NCBI RefSeq assembly: GCF_030684315.1
Contig: NC_081387.1
Span: 27,596,970-27,648,646, forward strand
DNA: 51,677 bases
Source: Stegostoma tigrinum
Taxonomy: Eukaryota
Reading direction: 5' to 3'
In this document: in pieces, positions 34,106 to 51,129 of the stretch
Numbering within the stretch: position 1 is the first letter of the stretch
How the letters are laid out: each line of letters opens with the position of its first letter
The notes under the pieces: generated by a model
Told to the model about the DNA's origin: nothing
What the model saw: only the letters and a program-made list of their open reading frames with translations
Databases searched by the model: none
Made by a program: the position numbers and the translations under genes

Positions 34106-34297
34106 ATAACAAGGTGTGGAACTGGATGAACGCAGCAGGAGCAGGAAAGCTGACATTTCAGGTCTGGACCCTTCCTCAGAAAAGGGTCCAGACCCGAAAC
34201 GTTACCTTTCCTGCTCCTCTGATGCTGCCTGGCCTGTTGTTTTCATCCAGCTGTACATCTTCTCTCAGATTCTCCAGCATCAGCAGTTCCTCCTATC
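34106..34297. mobile_element. Short fold-back Penelope-tail insertion with 14-bp TSD
   Basis: CCTGTGGGATTGTT at 34092-34105 and 34298-34311; internal inverted arms. Confidence 0.75.
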
Positions 34298-36466
34298 CCT
34301 GTGGGATTGTTGCTGGCTCTTCAACACTTTGAAGTCTCCATTCAACGCAGCAACAAGGAAATGCTAATTAACTGATCGCAATCCACCGGCCTTCAATGAA
34401 ACCTTTACTATAGGGAGCAAGAGTCTGTTGGAATGGAGATTTTATTTGTAATACCAGAATAGATAATGTATTGCATTGTCCCAAAAGTAAAACGTTGAAA
34501 ACAGATTATAGGTTGAAGAAATGTTGAGACAGTTTATGGTTGTATAGCAGGGGGTGGTAATGAATGACAGACGGATGGAGGTTTTATGATGGAATACATT
34601 GTCAGATGGCTGGCCCAGTGACTGGGGATACAATACGTGATAACACATGGAGGAGAGACCAGCATTTACTGGCCATCCCTAATTGCCCCTCAAAATGAGT
34701 GGTAAGGCCAGCCACATTCACTGAGGAGCAGGAACCACAACTAGCCCAGTTTGTGCAAAGGTGACAGATTTTGTCACTGAAAGGGAGGCAGTTGGAACGT
34801 GATGACGATCTCCAATAAGATACACAGCCATGTTTAACCTTCCAGGTTTATGCACTGGGTTGAAGTTCCACCAGTTTGCATGGTGGGATATGCAGCTGTT
34901 GTGTAGGAGAGGTGGTCTGCGATGTGTGTTTGTGTGTGAGAAAGACAGACTGATCGTGGACAGGTAATTACCCCAGGAAGGGCTCCCTACCCCTGCGTAC
35001 AGGTCTCACCAATATATTTTGCCGGGCTACCATGTTTGACAAAGGGGCTGTTTTCTGGAAGCTGCCCCCAGCTGCTCTCAGCCACCACTCCCACCCATCA
35101 ACATCCTGCACACAAGACAGAGTCTGTGCTCCCCACCGGTGACAGTGCCGTGCTCCCTCCACACTCAGCAGGGACTTTCAGTGCTGCTTCTGAACTTTAC
35201 CCACTGCAGGCATGTTTGTCAGACAGTTACAGTTCTACTCCCCCCACTCTACACATCTCCCCGCTCACCAAACAAATCCCACCCCCCCAACCCCAAACTC
35301 AGTACCCCTTCTCCCCCTCCCCAATCTCAGTGATAACAGCGAGAATAACACATCAAATTGACAAAGAATTATGTAGTTTTAGGTATGTAGTTTTAATTCA
35401 GACATGAAGGATGTTTTTTACAATGGTTGGAACAGGGCAATGATGTCCTACCAGTTCTGCAAATGCTGCTGTTCGGCGTGTATACAGGTTCATTTCCAAA
35501 GCTGGTAACACTCAGCATGGCTGGCAACTTCCGGGGTTTAACCTTCCCTCCAAGCTCAGAGCACATTCGACTCAAACCATTCCCTGTCCTTCCTTCTGCA
35601 CCCGTGCTGTCTGAGCTACCTGGAGTTTATTTTGAAACGGCTGCACTTGCTGCTTTTATTGTCTCGTGACAGCACCCACAGTAGTTTGCCTGTAATCTGT
35701 TAGACGCAAGGCTGCAGGGGACTGTGTCCATAATGGCAGGCAGTGATCGATGGTTGATGAGACCACAGCCAATGTTCACCTTACAGTGCGCAGACTAATG
35801 TCATCTGTATCTAACCACGTGATGGCCCTATGGTTAGTCACTTTTGGGAGTGAACTGGTATTCCGCACCCCCCCCACCCTTATGTTAACAATAAGCTGCT
35901 TGTCTTTACCATTTACTCACAAGAATTCAGAGGTTTTCAGCCAGAGATAATGGGTGCCATTTATTTATCGAAGAGGAGGCACACGGGGACGCCATTCTTA
36001 CCCAGCAGACAACATACTGGAAAGCCGAAGTGTAGGCAGTAAATTGCAGATCAGGCTGCATGAGTGGAGAGAAACTGAGCTAATGTTCCAGGCTGACCAC
36101 CTCTCGTGTGTTTTTACACAGAACAGTGTTTCATCTCATGGCAGACACCTGACTCACAGTGAAATACGGTCAATATATTTTTCCCCACCCAGGAGGATCT
36201 CACCAGTGATACTGATTAACCCCCCAGGAAATGGAGCATTCCCTGCCCCTCAAACACTGTGCGCATTCTAGCTGGTCTTGCGTTTGGGCAGGTTGGCCAC
36301 AGAATGTGGCACTGCCTCACGACAGCACTGCTGTTAGCCTGGGTTTGAACCCTGAGATCCAGAAAAGAACATGCATTGGGCCCAACAGGAGACCCCCTAA
36401 CAACATCAGGAAACACCAAACCCATTGTGGAGCACTTTGTAAAGGGACACACCCCAAAGTTGGTTC

Positions 36467-38924: not shown

Positions 38925-39505
38925 CTTGGTTCCTGCAGTTCCTCCCGGCGAGTATGAAATTCTTCAAACATTGTGATGATTTCAACATGCCCAGCTTGTC
39001 TGGCCAAATCCAAAGCATCTCGCCCCGTGGAATCGCACACTCCAATCCATGCAGCCCCACGGTTCAGTAAGTACTTCACCACCTCTGCCTGCCCGCTGTA
39101 CGCCGCACACATTGTGGCAGTCCAGTAATAACTGTCCCGGAAATTTATATCACACATTGCAGTCTCCAGTAACCTGCGAAGCCTTTTCAGGTCCCCATCC
39201 TGAGCACATTTTAGCAGGAGGTGTCCATTCCTCTCCGTTGCTGCAGCAGGCAGACTCCTTGGAGTTTGCTCCCTGTTGGTCCTTTCAGTCTTTGACGTCT
39301 GCCAAACAACTTTACGTTTCCGAATGGAACTCGTACCTGCCTCACCATCTGATGTGAGAAGGCTCTCATAAAACTTTTTCACCTCATCTCCAGTCAGGAC
39401 TTCAATCCCGGGGCCAGGCGATGGAGGTTTCTGACGCTCTCCATTTTCCCAGGTGTCTGTTTCATCTTTGGCTCGGGTAAAAGTGATGAGGTTCATGTGA
39501 TCCAT
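38925..39505 (-). CDS. GPANK1: GPANK1 first coding exon (ankyrin repeats)
   Basis: LITFTRA...FYESL...AQDGDL...INFRDSYYWTATMCAA...GAAWIGVC; donor AG|gtgag, phase 2 matches next exon; 581 nt; total 344 aa; 5' UTR acceptor at 39591. Confidence 0.95.
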
Positions 39506-41799: not shown

Positions 41800-42655
41800 G
41801 GCATGAAGAACCGCAGGAGATGCTACACTTGTCCCCACACCTCCTCCCTCACCCCCATCCCAGGCCCCAAGATGACATTCCACATTAAGCAGAGGTTCAC
41901 CTGCACATCTGCCAATGTGGTATACTGTATCGACTGTACCCGGTGTGGCTTCCTCTACATTGGGGAAACCAAGCGGAGGCTTGGGGACCGCTTTGCAGAA
42001 CACCTCCGCTCAGTTCGCAACAAACAACTGCACCTCCCAGTCGCAAACCATTTCCACTCCCCCTCCCATTCTTTAGATGACATGTCCATCATGGGCCTCC
42101 TGCACTGCCACAATGATGCCACCCGAAGGTTGCAGGAACAGCAACTCATATTCCGCTTGGGAACCCTGCAGCCATATGGTATCAATGTGGACTTCACCAG
42201 TTTCAAAATCTCCCCTTCCCCCACCGCATCCCTAAACCAGCCCAGTTCATCCCCTCCCCCCACTGCACCACACAACCAGCCCAGCTCTTCCCCCCCACCC
42301 ACTGCATCCCAAAACCAGTCCAGCCTGTCTCTGCCTCCCTAACCTGTTCTTCCTCTCACCCATCCCTTCCTCCCACCCCAAGCCGCACCCCCAGCTACCT
42401 ACTAACCCCATCCCACCTCCTTGACCTGTCCGTCTTCCCTGACTGACCTATCCCCTCCCTACCTCCCCACCTATACTCTCTCCACCTATCTTCTTTACTC
42501 TCCATCTTCGGTCCGCCTCCCCCTCTCTCCCTATTTATTCCAGTTCCCTCCCCCCATCCCTCTCTCTGATGAAGGGTCTAGGCCCGAAACGTCAGCTTTT
42601 GTGCTCCTGAGATGCTGCTGGGCCTGCTGTGTCCATCCAGCCCCACACTTTGCTA
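41800..42655 (+). mobile_element. Penelope-like element 3' fragment with GIY-YIG endonuclease ORF and terminal repeat
   Basis: CYTC...FTCTSANVVYCIDCTRCGFLYIGETKRRLGDRFAEH...PVANHF...EQQLIFRLGTLQPYGIN. Confidence 0.92.
42564..42595 (+). ncRNA. Minimal type-I hammerhead ribozyme-like motif in Penelope terminal repeat
   Basis: CT-CTGATGA-AGGGTCTAGGCCC-GAAAC-GTC-AG: both conserved cores, GGG/CCC helix II, GUC cleavage triplet. Confidence 0.7.
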
Positions 42656-45625: not shown

Positions 45626-46320
45626 CATAATTACTGACCTTTGAAATTCCACGTTGTGGAAGTATTGTGGGATATAAAAGCAGTTTTGTACTTTTTAGGC
45701 CCGAAATGTCAGCTTTCCTGCTCCTAAGATGCTGCTTGGCCTGCTGTGTTCATCCAGCTACACACTTTGTTATCTCGGATTCTCCAGCATCTGCAGTTCC
45801 CATTATCTCTTGTGCTTTTATTCTGTTCACAGCCACGAATTGGACTGTAGCCGCCCATATTCATGAGAACAAAAGAGAACAGGAGCGGAATGGACTCTTC
45901 AGCCCATCGAACCTACCTCATTGTTCAGTATGACCATGCTAAGTGTTGCGATTCAGCTCCAGTCTCCTGCACCCACCCCGTTTCCCTGGGCTCCCAGAGA
46001 GAGCTAAGTTCCGTCTGCCCCACGTTTAAAACTATTGTGCAGTGGACCATCCACCACCTTCCAGGGTAGGGAATTCCAAACCTTCATAGAACCCTTTGAG
46101 TAAAGGTCCCAGTACTTGAACAATGGGCCTTTTGTATATGCTTTCCCTCTGTTCTGGGCTAGACACTTAGAGCTGCAGTTTGTGTAATTGTTCTCTTCCC
46201 ATCTTTGCTGTCTGTCTCTCTGCCACTCTTGTGCTCTCTCTTACTTTCTCAGTTGAGGTTAGATGAATTCTCACGGCACCAAGTAAATTCCACTGTCTCG
46301 TTGCCTATCCCCCTGTGCAG

Positions 46321-46408: not shown

Positions 46409-48937
46409 GTGAGCATTGCTTCTTTGAACTTAACTCGCACAGAATTTCTTTATGGAATTAAATTGCTTTTACAGCCACTCTGTTATGTGCCATTGGTTAG
46501 GATTGCATGTATGATTGTAGAAATGAAGGTTTGTTACAGTGTGGGCAACAAAGGTGTTTGATAGCAGTACTGACTCCTTGGGAGAGTGCACTGAGAGTCA
46601 GCCTTAGTACTCCCAGAGTCACTGAAAAAGATAATGATTGAATCAAACTGCACACAGCCTCCAATTTGGCTGTCTGATAGATTCAGGTTATCAGGCCAAA
46701 ACGTCAGCTTTACTGCTCCTAAGATGCTGCTTGGCCTGCTGTGTTCATCAGCTCCACACCTTGTTATCAGGAAACACTGGCCAGGTCCTGGATTTTACAA
46801 GAATCATATTTGTGAAGCTCTAGTCACAGGTAAAAGAAAACTATGTGCTATTAACAAAAAATTGTTACTTAAATAAACTCTAACCCTCCCTTAAACCCTG
46901 CTCCCTGATGCTGAGAGGCTGCAGTGCTAATCACTGAGCTACTGTGCCCTGATGTCCTGTTCTAACAGCCCACTTTGTAACTTCTGTCTAATTTTAGTTC
47001 ACAACATTCCTGGGATGTGTTTCCGGTTATTAACGTTAAAGGCATGATATAAACTAGCAGTGTTGTTGACGTTGTCAAGGGAGAGCACTCGGCAATGGGA
47101 GGGCTCTGAGGATAGATCCTAAGTGGGCTGGCTGTACTAGTGCTGCTGTTTTGTTTTGTTTACTGATCCACATTGTTTTGTAGGTTTGAGAAATCCTCCT
47201 GTTAACTCTCTAACGTTCACTCCATACTGCAATGTACCATTGACAGAAAGCTGGTACAAAGCAACAAGGGCCCATCTCTGAAGTGGCATCACCTGCCAAA
47301 TGCGAGACGGGAGAACAATGTAGTCCCTTTTCAACAGGGGAAGGTGCAGCCACACGCTGTCCAAAGCTGAGATCCGGCTCTTCCTGGTCATCGTTTTACC
47401 AGCACCACACACAAGGTCTATTAAAGTTCAAAGAACCCCCAAAGAAAGGTTAATGGAATGGGCAGGTAGATATACCGATACCGTGGCACCATGTATGGGG
47501 ATGGGAATGTTGGCTGGCCGAGAAGGTTCTGCAAGTAGGGAACAAGTAGGTTCCTTGGAAATGTAAATGTAAGGGTCACAGTGTAAGAATAAGGGGCAGG
47601 CCATTCCGGACTGAGAGGAGGAAGAATTTCTTCACGCAGAGAGTTGTGAACCTGCGGAATTCCCTCCCACCGGAAGCTGTTGGAGTCAGGTCATTTGATG
47701 TATCCAAGAGGGAGCTGAATGTGGCTAAAAGGATTGGGGGTTTGGAGAGAAAGCGGGAATGGGATACTGAGATGATCAGCTATGGTCATATTTAATGTTG
47801 GTTCAGGTTCCTGATACTTCCTGTGTTTCTGTGTGAATGCAGGTGGGTAAAAGAGCAGTTGAATTTTTGGGCCTGTCTTTTTGCTCTTGTCGCTCTGTGC
47901 TCGTTCTGAGCGATAACGGTAGATTTGTAGTGTGTTGCTTGAGCTGAAGTTAGTGTTGGTGAACGCTCCTCTGAGTGACTTGAGGTCCATTGAGGGTCGC
48001 TTGGACATGATGCAAAGTGGCAAGGAGAGACTTCACTTACTGGGATGTCATTTGTGGAATAGGCAAAGCCAGGGAAAGAGAGATACTGATTGGACAGTCA
48101 GTATCTAACCGTCGGAGTTATCCGCTTTGGAAAATATTCCATTGGATGTTCAGCTAAGTAAGACTGAGACATGGTTTTCCAAAATACCGGGACCGCGGGG
48201 CGAGGCATTTGTTCTCACTGGCACAGGACTAGTTAGTAGCATTGCCACGTTGTTTAATGGTAGTGCTGCGGTCCGATCCCAGCACTAAAGCTTCCTGCAT
48301 AACCCTCAGCCCCCCGACAGGCCACTGTGTGCAGTTACCTTTCCTCTGCTCTGGTGTTTTATCTAATTGTGATCAGCTCAAGCATTTGCCAAATACAGAA
48401 AAAGTTACTTGTTTTTAAACTTTACATGCATGCTGCTATGAATTCTCCCTTACACTTTGTCTCTCGTATCTCTTGAGCATTGAATTTGGCTCGGGCGCTG
48501 TGATTGTATTGTCCAAAAGCGAGGAAAATCCTCAATCTGACCCGAGCTCGATCCCGATTGTTAGATTGAAACCTTCAAATCCGTGGAGAGTTGTTATTGA
48601 CTGAAATAGGCGAGAAATCTTATTGAGGTGACTTTATGTTGGGGAGGGGTGTGTCAGACAATTCAAAAGTAAAATTGGAAAGTGGAGACAAACAAAGAGC
48701 TGTCACAGGTTTGGTTGGCTCCTGGCCGGGGCCGTTGCAGCTATGTTTCAAGGGAGATCATTTGCAGCTTTTAATGGAAAACAAACAAATACTTGAAGGA
48801 GAGAGATTGAGGGCCGTGGGATGAGTGTTGGATGTTTGCAGCAAAGGGTTGGCATAAACGAGACCAGGTGAATGGCCTCCTCCTCTGGTTCTGCTCTAGT
48901 TGTGAGACATCTGTTACAAGAATTGTCCTTTTTCATG

Positions 48938-49202
48938 AACACAGCAGGCCAAGCAGCATCTCAGGAGCACAAAAGCTGACGTTTCGGGCCTAGACCCTTC
49001 ATCAGAGAGGGAGATGGGGAGAGGGAACTGGAATAATTCCAGATTTATTCCAGTTCCCTCTCCCCATCCCCCTCTCTGATGAAGGGTCTAGGCCCGAAAC
49101 GTCAGCTTCTGTGCTCCTGAGATGCTGCTTGGCCTGCTGTGTTCATCCAGCTTCACATTTTATTATCTTGGATTCTCCAGCATCTGCAGTTCCCATTATC
49201 TC
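48938..49202. mobile_element. Palindromic Penelope-tail insertion with 15-bp TSD and hammerhead cores on both strands
   Basis: Arms about 48935-49036 and 49045-49146 are near-perfect reverse complements; TTGTCCTTTTTCATG at 48923-48937 and 49203-49217. Confidence 0.88.
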
Positions 49203-49550
49203 TTGTCCTTTTTCATGTCAGTTTTTCTGTAGCTTTCTTAGCAGTGAAGCTTTTGTTAAGTTACGTGACTACATTCCATGTGGAACGTTTACCCAACCAA
49301 ATAATCTGTACCATTTTAAGAGTCTAACTGAGCTGGTGCTGTAGCTGAAGGAAAATTGCAGTGCTGTGTAAGACAGGTTAAACACAGACACTGCCAGACC
49401 TGCTGAACTTTTCCAGCAATTTCTATTTTTGTCTCTGATTTACAGCATCCACAGTTCTTTCCGTTTTTACTGTTGCCTTTCGGTGGTGTTACTGTTCACT
49501 TTGTCTTGAAGGTACTGACTACATAAATCAGGTTAATTTCTATGTTACAG

Positions 49551-49603: not shown

Positions 49604-50043
49604 GTAAGTTAAATCCACCAAAGTTCAGCGAAGGAGCAGAGTTCTTTGTCAGGTTAGATGATGTGGAGGTGCCAGTGTTGGATAAAGTCCGAAGTCACCA
49701 GGTTTTAGACCAACAGGTTTATTTGAAAACACAAGCTGTCATAGCGCTGCTGCTTTGTCAGCTGCAGTCACTTTGGAGCAGCGCTCCCAAAGATCGTGAT
49801 TTCAAATAAACCTGTTGGACTGTGACCTGTAGTCTTGTGGTGTCTGTGTTTGTAAGGTGATTTGGGATGGGTATCAAGAAGTAATGAATTATTTTCATGT
49901 CGGGATCAAGTAAGAGAAATTTACCTTTGTACCCCAGTGTGTTTAAATTCCATCTGAGATGTGACCTTTTTACTAGTCCTTTTATGTCCTGTTAGAGTCA
50001 CTCAGTATCTTCTAAATATCTCCAAAACATCTTCAGGATTGGT

Positions 50044-50333
50044 AGTGAGTTTTGAGAAGATTTGTAGCTCGGGTTGAAGTTCTGGATGTGAGTTTGCTCA
50101 CTGAGCTGGAAGGTTAGTTTTCAGACGTTTTCGTCACCATTCTGGGTAACATCATCAGTGAGCCTCCGACGAAGCGCTGGTGTTATGTCCCGCTTTCTAT
50201 TTATGAATATATATAAATAGAAAGCGGGACATAACACCAGCGCTCCGTCGGAGGCTCACTGATGATGTTACCTAGAATGGTGATGAAAACGTCTGAAAAC
50301 TAACCTTCCAGCTCAGCGAACAAACTCACATCC
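50044..50333. mobile_element. Palindromic insertion of a second Penelope-type terminal family, 17-bp TSD, hammerhead-like cores on both strands
   Basis: Arms about 50083-50204 and 50213-50334; ACATCTTCAGGATTGGT at 50027-50043 and 50334-50350. Confidence 0.85.
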
Positions 50334-51129
50334 ACATCTTCAGGATTGGTGTTATGGAGATAAATTTTGAAATAACGCTCTGCTCCAAGACACGGGGACA
50401 AAGAAAGTACGTGCAGGAGTAGACCATTTGGCCCTTCAAGCCTGCACTACCATTCAGTGCGATCGTGGCTGACCATGCGATCTCAGTATCCCGTTCCAGC
50501 CCTCTACCCATACCCCTTGATCCCTTCAGCCACGAGGGTCATGTCCAGCTCCTGCTTAAGTGGATGCAATGAACTAGCCCCAACAGCTTCCTGTGGGAGA
50601 CAGTTCCACAGGTTCACAACTCGGAGTGAAAGGAATTCTTCCTCATCTCAGTCCTGAATGGCCTACCCCTTATACTTACACTGTGACAAAAATCATTTAT
50701 TTACGTCAAAAAAAACTCCAGCACTGACAGTTGGAGAAATTTTTATTAAGCCCCCAACAGAGAAGGATGGGGGTTCAGTTGGCATGTAATGGAGGGACAG
50801 GGACAGCCCCAGCAGGTTTGTCAAATACATTGTCCCTTATAACAGATCATTCCCTCCCATTAAAACTTTGCACTTATTTGTGACCTTTGTAATGTTTACA
50901 ATACACCACAACGAAGACTGATACAAAATGTTGACTCAAATTCTCTGCCATTTTCCTGTTCCTGTTATTAATTCCTCCATCATGTCCTCTGAGGAATGCA
51001 TGCTTAACTTTGCTTAAGCACACCCAACAGCAGGTTCAAGAACAGCTTCCTCCCTGCCATTATTAGACCAATGAACGGACTCTCTATTCTCAAATAATGT
51101 CAATTTTGTTAATGTTGTTATCAGGGAAA

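What the first reader, a model, noticed from the sequence alone, without database searches (positions are those of the whole stretch)
48923..49217. Fold-back mini-retroelement with a hammerhead core on each strand inside VPS52 intron 2
Seen: ~100-bp arms with an 8-nt spacer, hammerhead cores at 49076-49103 (plus) and 48978-49005 (minus), flanked by a perfect 15-bp TSD. Whichever strand is transcribed carries one ribozyme core plus its own antisense. Inference: a non-autonomous Penelope derivative made by template switching; the hairpin would mask the ribozyme in host pre-mRNA and could feed Dicer or ADAR.
Basis: partly seen in the sequence, partly recalled or inferred. Interest (0 to 1): 0.7.

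Follow-up and report, generated by a model that had tools for sequence, protein, structure and literature searches.

The report
Routine two-armed Penelope retrotransposon stub
This mirror-image repeat in a VPS52 intron is real but ordinary, one of an estimated 170,000 head-to-head stubs left by a Penelope-type jumping gene in this genome, and the family's ends suggest that such stubs are likely written by two copying starts, one from each cut DNA strand.

Summary
Observation confirmed: 102-nt arms (100 complementary), 8-nt loop, a minimal hammerhead motif on each strand, a perfect 15-nt target duplication, VPS52 intron 2, and a clean empty site in one related organism. It is not a special mini-element. 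The arms are the 3' end of an abundant Penelope-like element with an RT + GIY-YIG frame (157/162 identical). In 1.36 Mb sampled blind, 71 of 225 insertions are such head-to-head pairs, 9 with a core on both strands. Centres differ from copy to copy, so pairs arise at insertion. The shape (inverted copy, one-sided 30-40 nt tail, TSD) is published. The family data favour two target-primed cDNAs from one RNA over simple fold-back: 66 of 71 pairs have the tail on exactly one arm, and the tail-less arm reaches further 5' as often as the tailed one (9 vs 7). This copy alone fits either model. Masking of the ribozyme is predicted but probably moot; Dicer/ADAR use is untested. The scan noted this family and this model before on other DNA.

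The parts
48923..48937 (+). Left target-site duplication (15 nt); its last 3 nt overlap the left arm (microhomology)
   Evidence: single copy at the empty site
48935..49036 (-). Tail-less inverted arm, element positions about -159 to -58 from the 3' end
48978..49005 (-). Minimal type I hammerhead motif, antisense in the VPS52 pre-mRNA
49037..49044 (.). 8-nt loop; its first 6 nt repeat 49048-49053 (templated filler at the join), its last 2 nt begin the right arm
   Evidence: read from the sequence
49043..49203 (+). Tailed arm: last 161 nt of the Penelope-like element, 157 of 162 aligned columns identical to a copy with a 686-aa RT-GIY-YIG frame
49076..49103 (+). Minimal type I hammerhead motif: CUGAUGA, one unpaired A, 4-bp helix II with 4-nt loop, GAAA, palindromic loop-less helix III; predicted cut after 49103
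   Evidence: features as in PMC4209133
49168..49203 (+). About 36-nt tail, present on this arm only
   Evidence: bimodal 3' ends of the family at 0 and about -36
49203..49217 (+). Right target-site duplication (15 nt)
46409..49550 (+). Host intron (VPS52 intron 2, inferred)

Best explanation
This is a 5'-truncated, head-to-head insertion of the 3' end of an abundant Penelope-like retrotransposon, and it was likely made in one integration event in which both cut DNA strands primed a short cDNA on the same RNA. Shown: insertion with TSD and empty site, identity to an RT+GIY-YIG element, abundance of such pairs, one-sided tail, same-subfamily arms. Inferred steps: (1) the GIY-YIG domain nicks the two strands about 15 nt apart; (2) one 3'-OH primes at the outer RT start site (0) and the other at or near the inner one (usually about -36, here -58 with 3 nt of microhomology); (3) both cDNAs stop near -160 and are joined head to head with a 6-nt templated filler; (4) fill-in gives the palindrome and the TSD. 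The two hammerhead motifs are passengers. They lie on opposite strands, cannot form the tandem dimer, and are predicted to be locked in a 102-bp helix. The copy is likely dead on arrival and neutral.
For: Empty site: a 1412-nt contig of organism E joins 48922 straight to 49203, i.e. one target copy and no element (X14 record 17). Parent: 686-aa frame with RVT_1 (E 3e-5) then GIY-YIG (E 0.0023). Census of 136 10-kb stretches: 296 arms, 71 head-to-head pairs, 154 solos, 1 tail-to-tail neighbour. TSD of 10 nt or more in 28 of 37 young pairs against 1 of 37 shifted controls. Solo 3' ends: 72 tailed, 56 at about -36, 13 other (of 141 away from edges), so -36 is an end in its own right. Pairs: exactly one tailed arm in 66 of 71; both tailed 1 (18.5 expected from the solos, P 1.3e-8). 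5' reach in 34 young pairs: tail-less arm further by >20 nt in 9, tailed arm in 7, within 20 nt in 18. A copy folded back from the tailed strand cannot reach further than that strand. Two of the 9 are very young (arm-arm divergence 0/258 and 1.1%). Arms agree at 146 of 160 subfamily sites, 90 expected. In vitro, an anole Penelope protein cuts and extends both strands and starts RT at two sites that bound the tail (PMC11167929).
Against: This copy is itself uninformative: its arms are nested (5' ends differ by 2 nt) and its short arm ends at -58, not -36; 5 of 37 young pairs share this off-site class. Half of the young pairs (18 of 34) have matched 5' ends, also at 330-770 nt, as fold-back predicts. 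Asymmetric deletion at palindrome centres after insertion could mimic the 9 non-nested pairs. Arm-to-arm gene conversion could raise concordance, and 7 of 36 pairs are no closer than the median unrelated copy. A tail-to-tail sibling product that two priming events might also give was not enriched (26 pattern matches vs 26 control; 1 of 26 real). Ends come from BLAST and are uncertain by a few nt. Both Pfam scores are below the curated cut-offs.
Confidence: 0.6

Rival explanations
1. Fold-back self-priming: one cDNA starts at the tail end, folds back on itself near -160, copies itself and then jumps to, or is cut and joined to, the other target end. Same parent, same lack of function.
For: This copy is nested, has a templated 6-nt filler at the apex and 3 nt of microhomology at the short arm's outer end. 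18 of 34 young pairs have matched 5' ends. Self-priming, on an antisense template, was proposed in PMC3846280, and endonuclease resolution of the tail in PMC8557442.
Against: It needs the copy to stop at the same -36 position at which 56 solo insertions end, and it cannot give the 9 pairs whose tail-less arm reaches further 5' without later deletions.
Confidence: 0.3
2. A non-autonomous palindromic mini-element that spreads as a unit from a fold-back master copy.
For: At least 19 other loci among the 40 scored have a centre at nearly the same place; two pairs of them share a centre.
Against: 17 of 19 centres are distinct, short-arm ends differ, and arms carry copy-specific subfamily letters on both sides. 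The query itself selected for that centre. In blind samples centres lie anywhere from -50 to beyond -2000.
Confidence: 0.05
3. The hairpin is kept or used by the host: it silences the ribozyme in VPS52 pre-mRNA or supplies dsRNA for ADAR or Dicer.
For: The core is predicted to be fully paired in the full transcript. Penelope is heavily A-to-I edited in a lizard, and a palindromic repeat is heavily edited in a frog (PMC5625713, passages).
Against: The insertion is absent from the one relative whose contig spans the site. Unpaired copies are twice as common as pairs. Single minimal motifs showed no cleavage (PMC4209133) and the anole motif needed its protein (PMC11167929), so there is probably little to mask. 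Incidental editing would not be a function.
Confidence: 0.05

Closest known systems
Complex insertions of endonuclease-positive Penelope-like elements: inverted 5'-truncated copy, optional 30-40 bp tail, TSD (Adineta Pen2a, PMC3846280; general scheme, PMC8557442)
   Same: Head-to-head inverted copy, tail on one end only, TSD, short repeat at the junction, RT followed by GIY-YIG in the parent
   Different: Here both arms are reduced to about 100-160 nt with no ORF left, and such pairs make up about a third of insertions (71 of 225)
Minimal hammerheads of metazoan PLEs (PMC4209133)
   Same: Core, unpaired base before helix II, G10.1-C11.1, palindromic 15.2-16.2; the paper already reports dual motifs 100-700 bp apart on opposite strands in Schistosoma
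   Different: Helix II has 4 bp rather than the 7-8 bp of the Schistosoma motifs; activity not tested here
Anole Poseidon element PAc (PMC11167929)
   Same: Two preferred 3' ends about 36 nt apart, downstream of the hammerhead
   Different: The parent here has a Cys-rich linker before the endonuclease (Neptune/Nematis type). The main text does not apply its two start sites to inverted insertions
Non-LTR retrozymes (bioRxiv 10.64898/2026.07.22.740005)
   Same: Short, non-coding, hammerhead-bearing, PLE-derived
   Different: Retrozymes are head-to-tail tandems able to form dimeric ribozymes; this is an inverted pair that cannot
L1 twin priming (recalled; only search listings seen)
   Same: Both target nicks would prime on one RNA
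   Different: L1 twin priming inverts a part without duplicating it; here both primers would start near the 3' end, which duplicates the sequence

Membership tests
EN+ Penelope-like element insertion | Parent with one frame holding RT then C-terminal GIY-YIG | tested here: met
   686-aa open frame, L084:6298-8355(-); RVT_1 E 3e-5, GIY-YIG E 0.0023, both under Pfam cut-offs; its 3' end is 157/162 identical to the arm
EN+ Penelope-like element insertion | Hammerhead motif near the 3' end | tested here: met
   Descriptor 86 hits vs 0 in five shuffles; Rfam models do not detect it
EN+ Penelope-like element insertion | Optional 30-40 bp tail at one end | tested here: met
   3' ends bimodal at 0 and about -36; 66 of 71 pairs tailed on one arm
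EN+ Penelope-like element insertion | Inverted 5'-truncated copy and TSD | tested here: met
EN+ Penelope-like element insertion | Full-length partial-tandem source copy with pLTRs | not tested
   Longest copies seen reach about 2.4-2.7 kb and are 5'-truncated; no full-length copy was sought
Neptune clade | CX2-5CxxC zinc-finger-like linker between RT and EN; placement in an RT tree | tested here: inconclusive
   Linker present in the frame, but PMC8557442 gives such a linker motif to Neptune and Nematis; no tree built
Non-LTR retrozyme | Head-to-tail tandem units, each with a hammerhead | tested here: not met
   Two motifs on opposite strands, no tandem
Self-propagating palindromic mini-element (MITE/SINE-like) | Copies share one fixed centre and fixed ends | tested here: not met
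   17 distinct centres in 19 loci; continuum of arm lengths
Active hammerhead ribozyme | Self-cleavage | not testable with these tools
   Indirect test inconclusive: young 5' ends number 1.21 per nt just 3' of the predicted cut against 0.83 per nt just 5' of it (17 in 14 nt, 19 in 23 nt)

The most novel reading that the evidence does not exclude
The long-known inverted-copy-plus-one-sided-tail shape of Penelope insertions is the footprint of double target priming: a (probably dimeric) RT-endonuclease primes from both nicks on one RNA, one primer at each of the two start sites that bound the tail. About a third of insertions in this genome are made so, leaving some 170,000 near-perfect hairpins.
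Probability: 0.55. Interest if true: 0.55.

Novelty: new member of a known kind. Interest (0 to 1): 0.27.

Why it matters
The locus itself matters little. The family matters in two ways. First, how Penelope-like elements make inverted ends and one-sided tails is stated as open in the papers read, and this genome offers a huge natural sample plus a model that the published in vitro system can test directly. Second, about 52 tight palindromes per Mb would make this element a large potential source of intronic double-stranded RNA and of cruciform-prone DNA in this lineage (inference; no RNA data seen).

Tried and rejected
Rfam: only generic microRNA-hairpin hits below gathering scores on the palindromes; no hammerhead model on the single arm. 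The isolated arm folds no better than shuffles (z 0.60, 0.35, -0.25). Expression, editing, small RNA: no RNA holder listed, so not tested. Presence or absence within the species: contigs of X1 and X2 cross the left junction by only 21 letters and may be the assembly's source, so nothing is concluded. Empty site: seen in 1 of 4 relative runs; X9, X10 and X13 did not cover the flanks, and no piece spanning the site was listed for X19. In vivo cleavage signature: no clear step at the predicted cut, and a stall at the 3' foot of the hairpin would look the same. Tail-to-tail siblings: pattern count equal to control (26 vs 26), 1 of 26 real; the both-tailed pattern gave 21 rows vs 9 control, and 2 of the 10 distinct loci fetched were real neighbours. 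The opposite-strand joints are therefore probably contigs bounded by two separate insertions (inference). Dropped rows: 3 of 37 young pairs lacking a tailed/tail-less contrast were left out of the 5'-reach count; 1 of 37 with under 40 shared columns was left out of the divergence test; L087 (next to the window) was kept out of the census; 3 of 20 stretches did not exist. Literature searches listed no paper that proposes double priming for PLE inverted ends or describes this family; the library lacks most subscription papers, Repbase was not available, and no supplements were read.

Full report
Observation. The arms are 48935-49036 and 49045-49146, with 2 mismatches in 102 nt and an 8-nt loop. 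The hairpin folds at -218.4 kcal/mol, z -25. A perfect 15-nt direct repeat flanks it. Each strand carries a CUGAUGA...GAAACGUC motif. Rfam has no model that detects the motif, but a minimal-hammerhead descriptor finds 86 such motifs in 1.36 Mb of this genome and none in five shuffles. Vps52 Pfam exons follow on the same strand just beyond the window, and three upstream exons with proper splice edges place the element in intron 2 (their identity as VPS52 exons 1-3 is recalled). A contig from a related organism joins 48922 directly to 49203, which is the empty site with one target copy. The genome is 3.2 Gb; that it is a shark is my recall and the wording of earlier notes, not a tool result.

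What it is. The right arm is the last 161 nt of a very abundant retroelement. [quoted passage not shown] Its 3' end matches the arm at 157 of 162 columns. This is an endonuclease-positive Penelope-like element, of Neptune or Nematis type by the linker (PMC8557442, passages; no tree built).

How common. I fetched 136 stretches of 10 kb at round coordinates on large contigs, blind to content. They hold 296 element ends: 71 head-to-head pairs and 154 solos. That is 52 pairs per Mb, about 167,000 pairs and 529,000 insertions if scaled to the genome (a rough figure, and very short arms are missed). Nine of the 71 pairs have a core on both strands, about 21,000 genome-wide. Of 37 young pairs, 28 have a TSD of 10 nt or more, mostly 12-19, against 1 of 37 controls. 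Among the 19 loci closest to this copy there are 17 distinct centres, and blind-sampled centres run from about -50 to beyond -2000. Each pair was therefore made at its own insertion; there is no sign of a palindromic master.

How it forms. The family's 3' ends are bimodal, at 0 and about -36. This is the known 30-40 bp tail (PMC3846280, passages and Discussion; PMC8557442). In vitro the tail lies between two RT start sites, and the protein cuts and extends both target strands (PMC11167929, main text). Solos use both ends (72 tailed, 56 tail-less, 13 other). Pairs almost always combine one of each: exactly one tail in 66 of 71, two tails in 1 where 18.5 are expected. The arms of a pair share subfamily letters at 146 of 160 sites, 90 expected, so they come from one template lineage. 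In 34 young pairs the tail-less arm reaches more than 20 nt further 5' in 9, the tailed arm in 7, and 18 are matched. A fold-back copy cannot extend beyond the strand it copies, so the 9 need either two independent primings or later deletion. I conclude that both nicks likely prime on one RNA, one at each start site, and that the cDNAs are joined head to head. Against this: matched 5' ends in half of the pairs fit fold-back as well as run-off at a common RNA end; palindrome centres can be deleted later; a possible tail-to-tail by-product was not enriched; and this copy, nested and ending at -58, does not choose between the models. Odds about 60:30.

The ribozyme. The motif has the features listed for metazoan PLE minimal hammerheads, and the same paper already mentions dual motifs on opposite strands 100-700 bp apart; single motifs did not cleave and tandem ones cleaved weakly (PMC4209133, parts 1-2 of 4). 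The anole motif cleaved only with protein and was dispensable for insertion. Here the two motifs are on opposite strands, so the tandem dimer cannot form, and in the VPS52 transcript the core is predicted to be fully paired. Masking is thus a likely physical fact but probably not a function: solos outnumber pairs, and one with an intact core sits at 41809-42651, about 430 nt upstream of the putative start codon. A-to-I editing is plausible by analogy (Penelope in lizard, palindromic repeat in frog; PMC5625713, passages) but could not be tested here.

Comparison and verdict. The structure is a known PLE insertion form in miniature. It is not a retrozyme, which is a head-to-tail tandem (bioRxiv 10.64898/2026.07.22.740005, part 1 of 5 and passages). 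Seven searches listed no paper proposing double priming for PLE inverted ends; the library is incomplete. I had noted the idea before the look-up, which showed that 247 earlier notes of this scan hold the same words and that several reach the same model; these are unchecked notes and add no support. Verdict: real, ordinary as a locus, new member of a known kind; interest 0.27, resting on the family-level mechanism.

Noticed in passing
window 50028-50351: A second, different hammerhead-bearing family forms the same shape 0.9 kb away: 130-nt arms, 95% complementary, a core-like motif on each strand (50124-50158 minus, 50259-50293 plus), extra sequence on the left end only, and a direct repeat of about 16 nt on both sides.
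   Followed up: partly
window 49692-49836 and 34111-34300: Two older palindromic insertions: the first of a third family (77% arms), the second an older relative of this family with a target duplication.
   Followed up: partly
genome sample, element positions -136 to -125 (window 49068-49079): Sharp peak of 5' ends just before the hammerhead core: 38 of 145 young arms, 3.2 per nt against 0.08 per nt upstream. It is also seen as the commonest joint in runs of two organisms. Possibly the RNA's 5' end. This copy lies outside the peak.
   Followed up: partly
window 41809-42651: 843-nt solo copy of the same element with the GIY-YIG end and an intact core, about 430 nt upstream of the putative VPS52 start codon; two shorter solos at 45698-45810 and 46685-46768 lie in introns 1 and 2.
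   Followed up: no
L084:6298-8355 (-): The parent frame continues past the endonuclease into about 40 residues of Pro/Ser-rich repeat before its stop.
   Followed up: no
L083:4915-5547: A copy followed by about ten tandem 39-nt repeats of the segment just 5' of the hammerhead core.
   Followed up: no
L052:8136-9325: A small fold-back copy sits at the centre of a larger one (nested insertion).
   Followed up: no
window 39000-39470 (minus strand): GC-richer stretch that looks like a divergently oriented coding exon upstream of VPS52; not identified.
   Followed up: no
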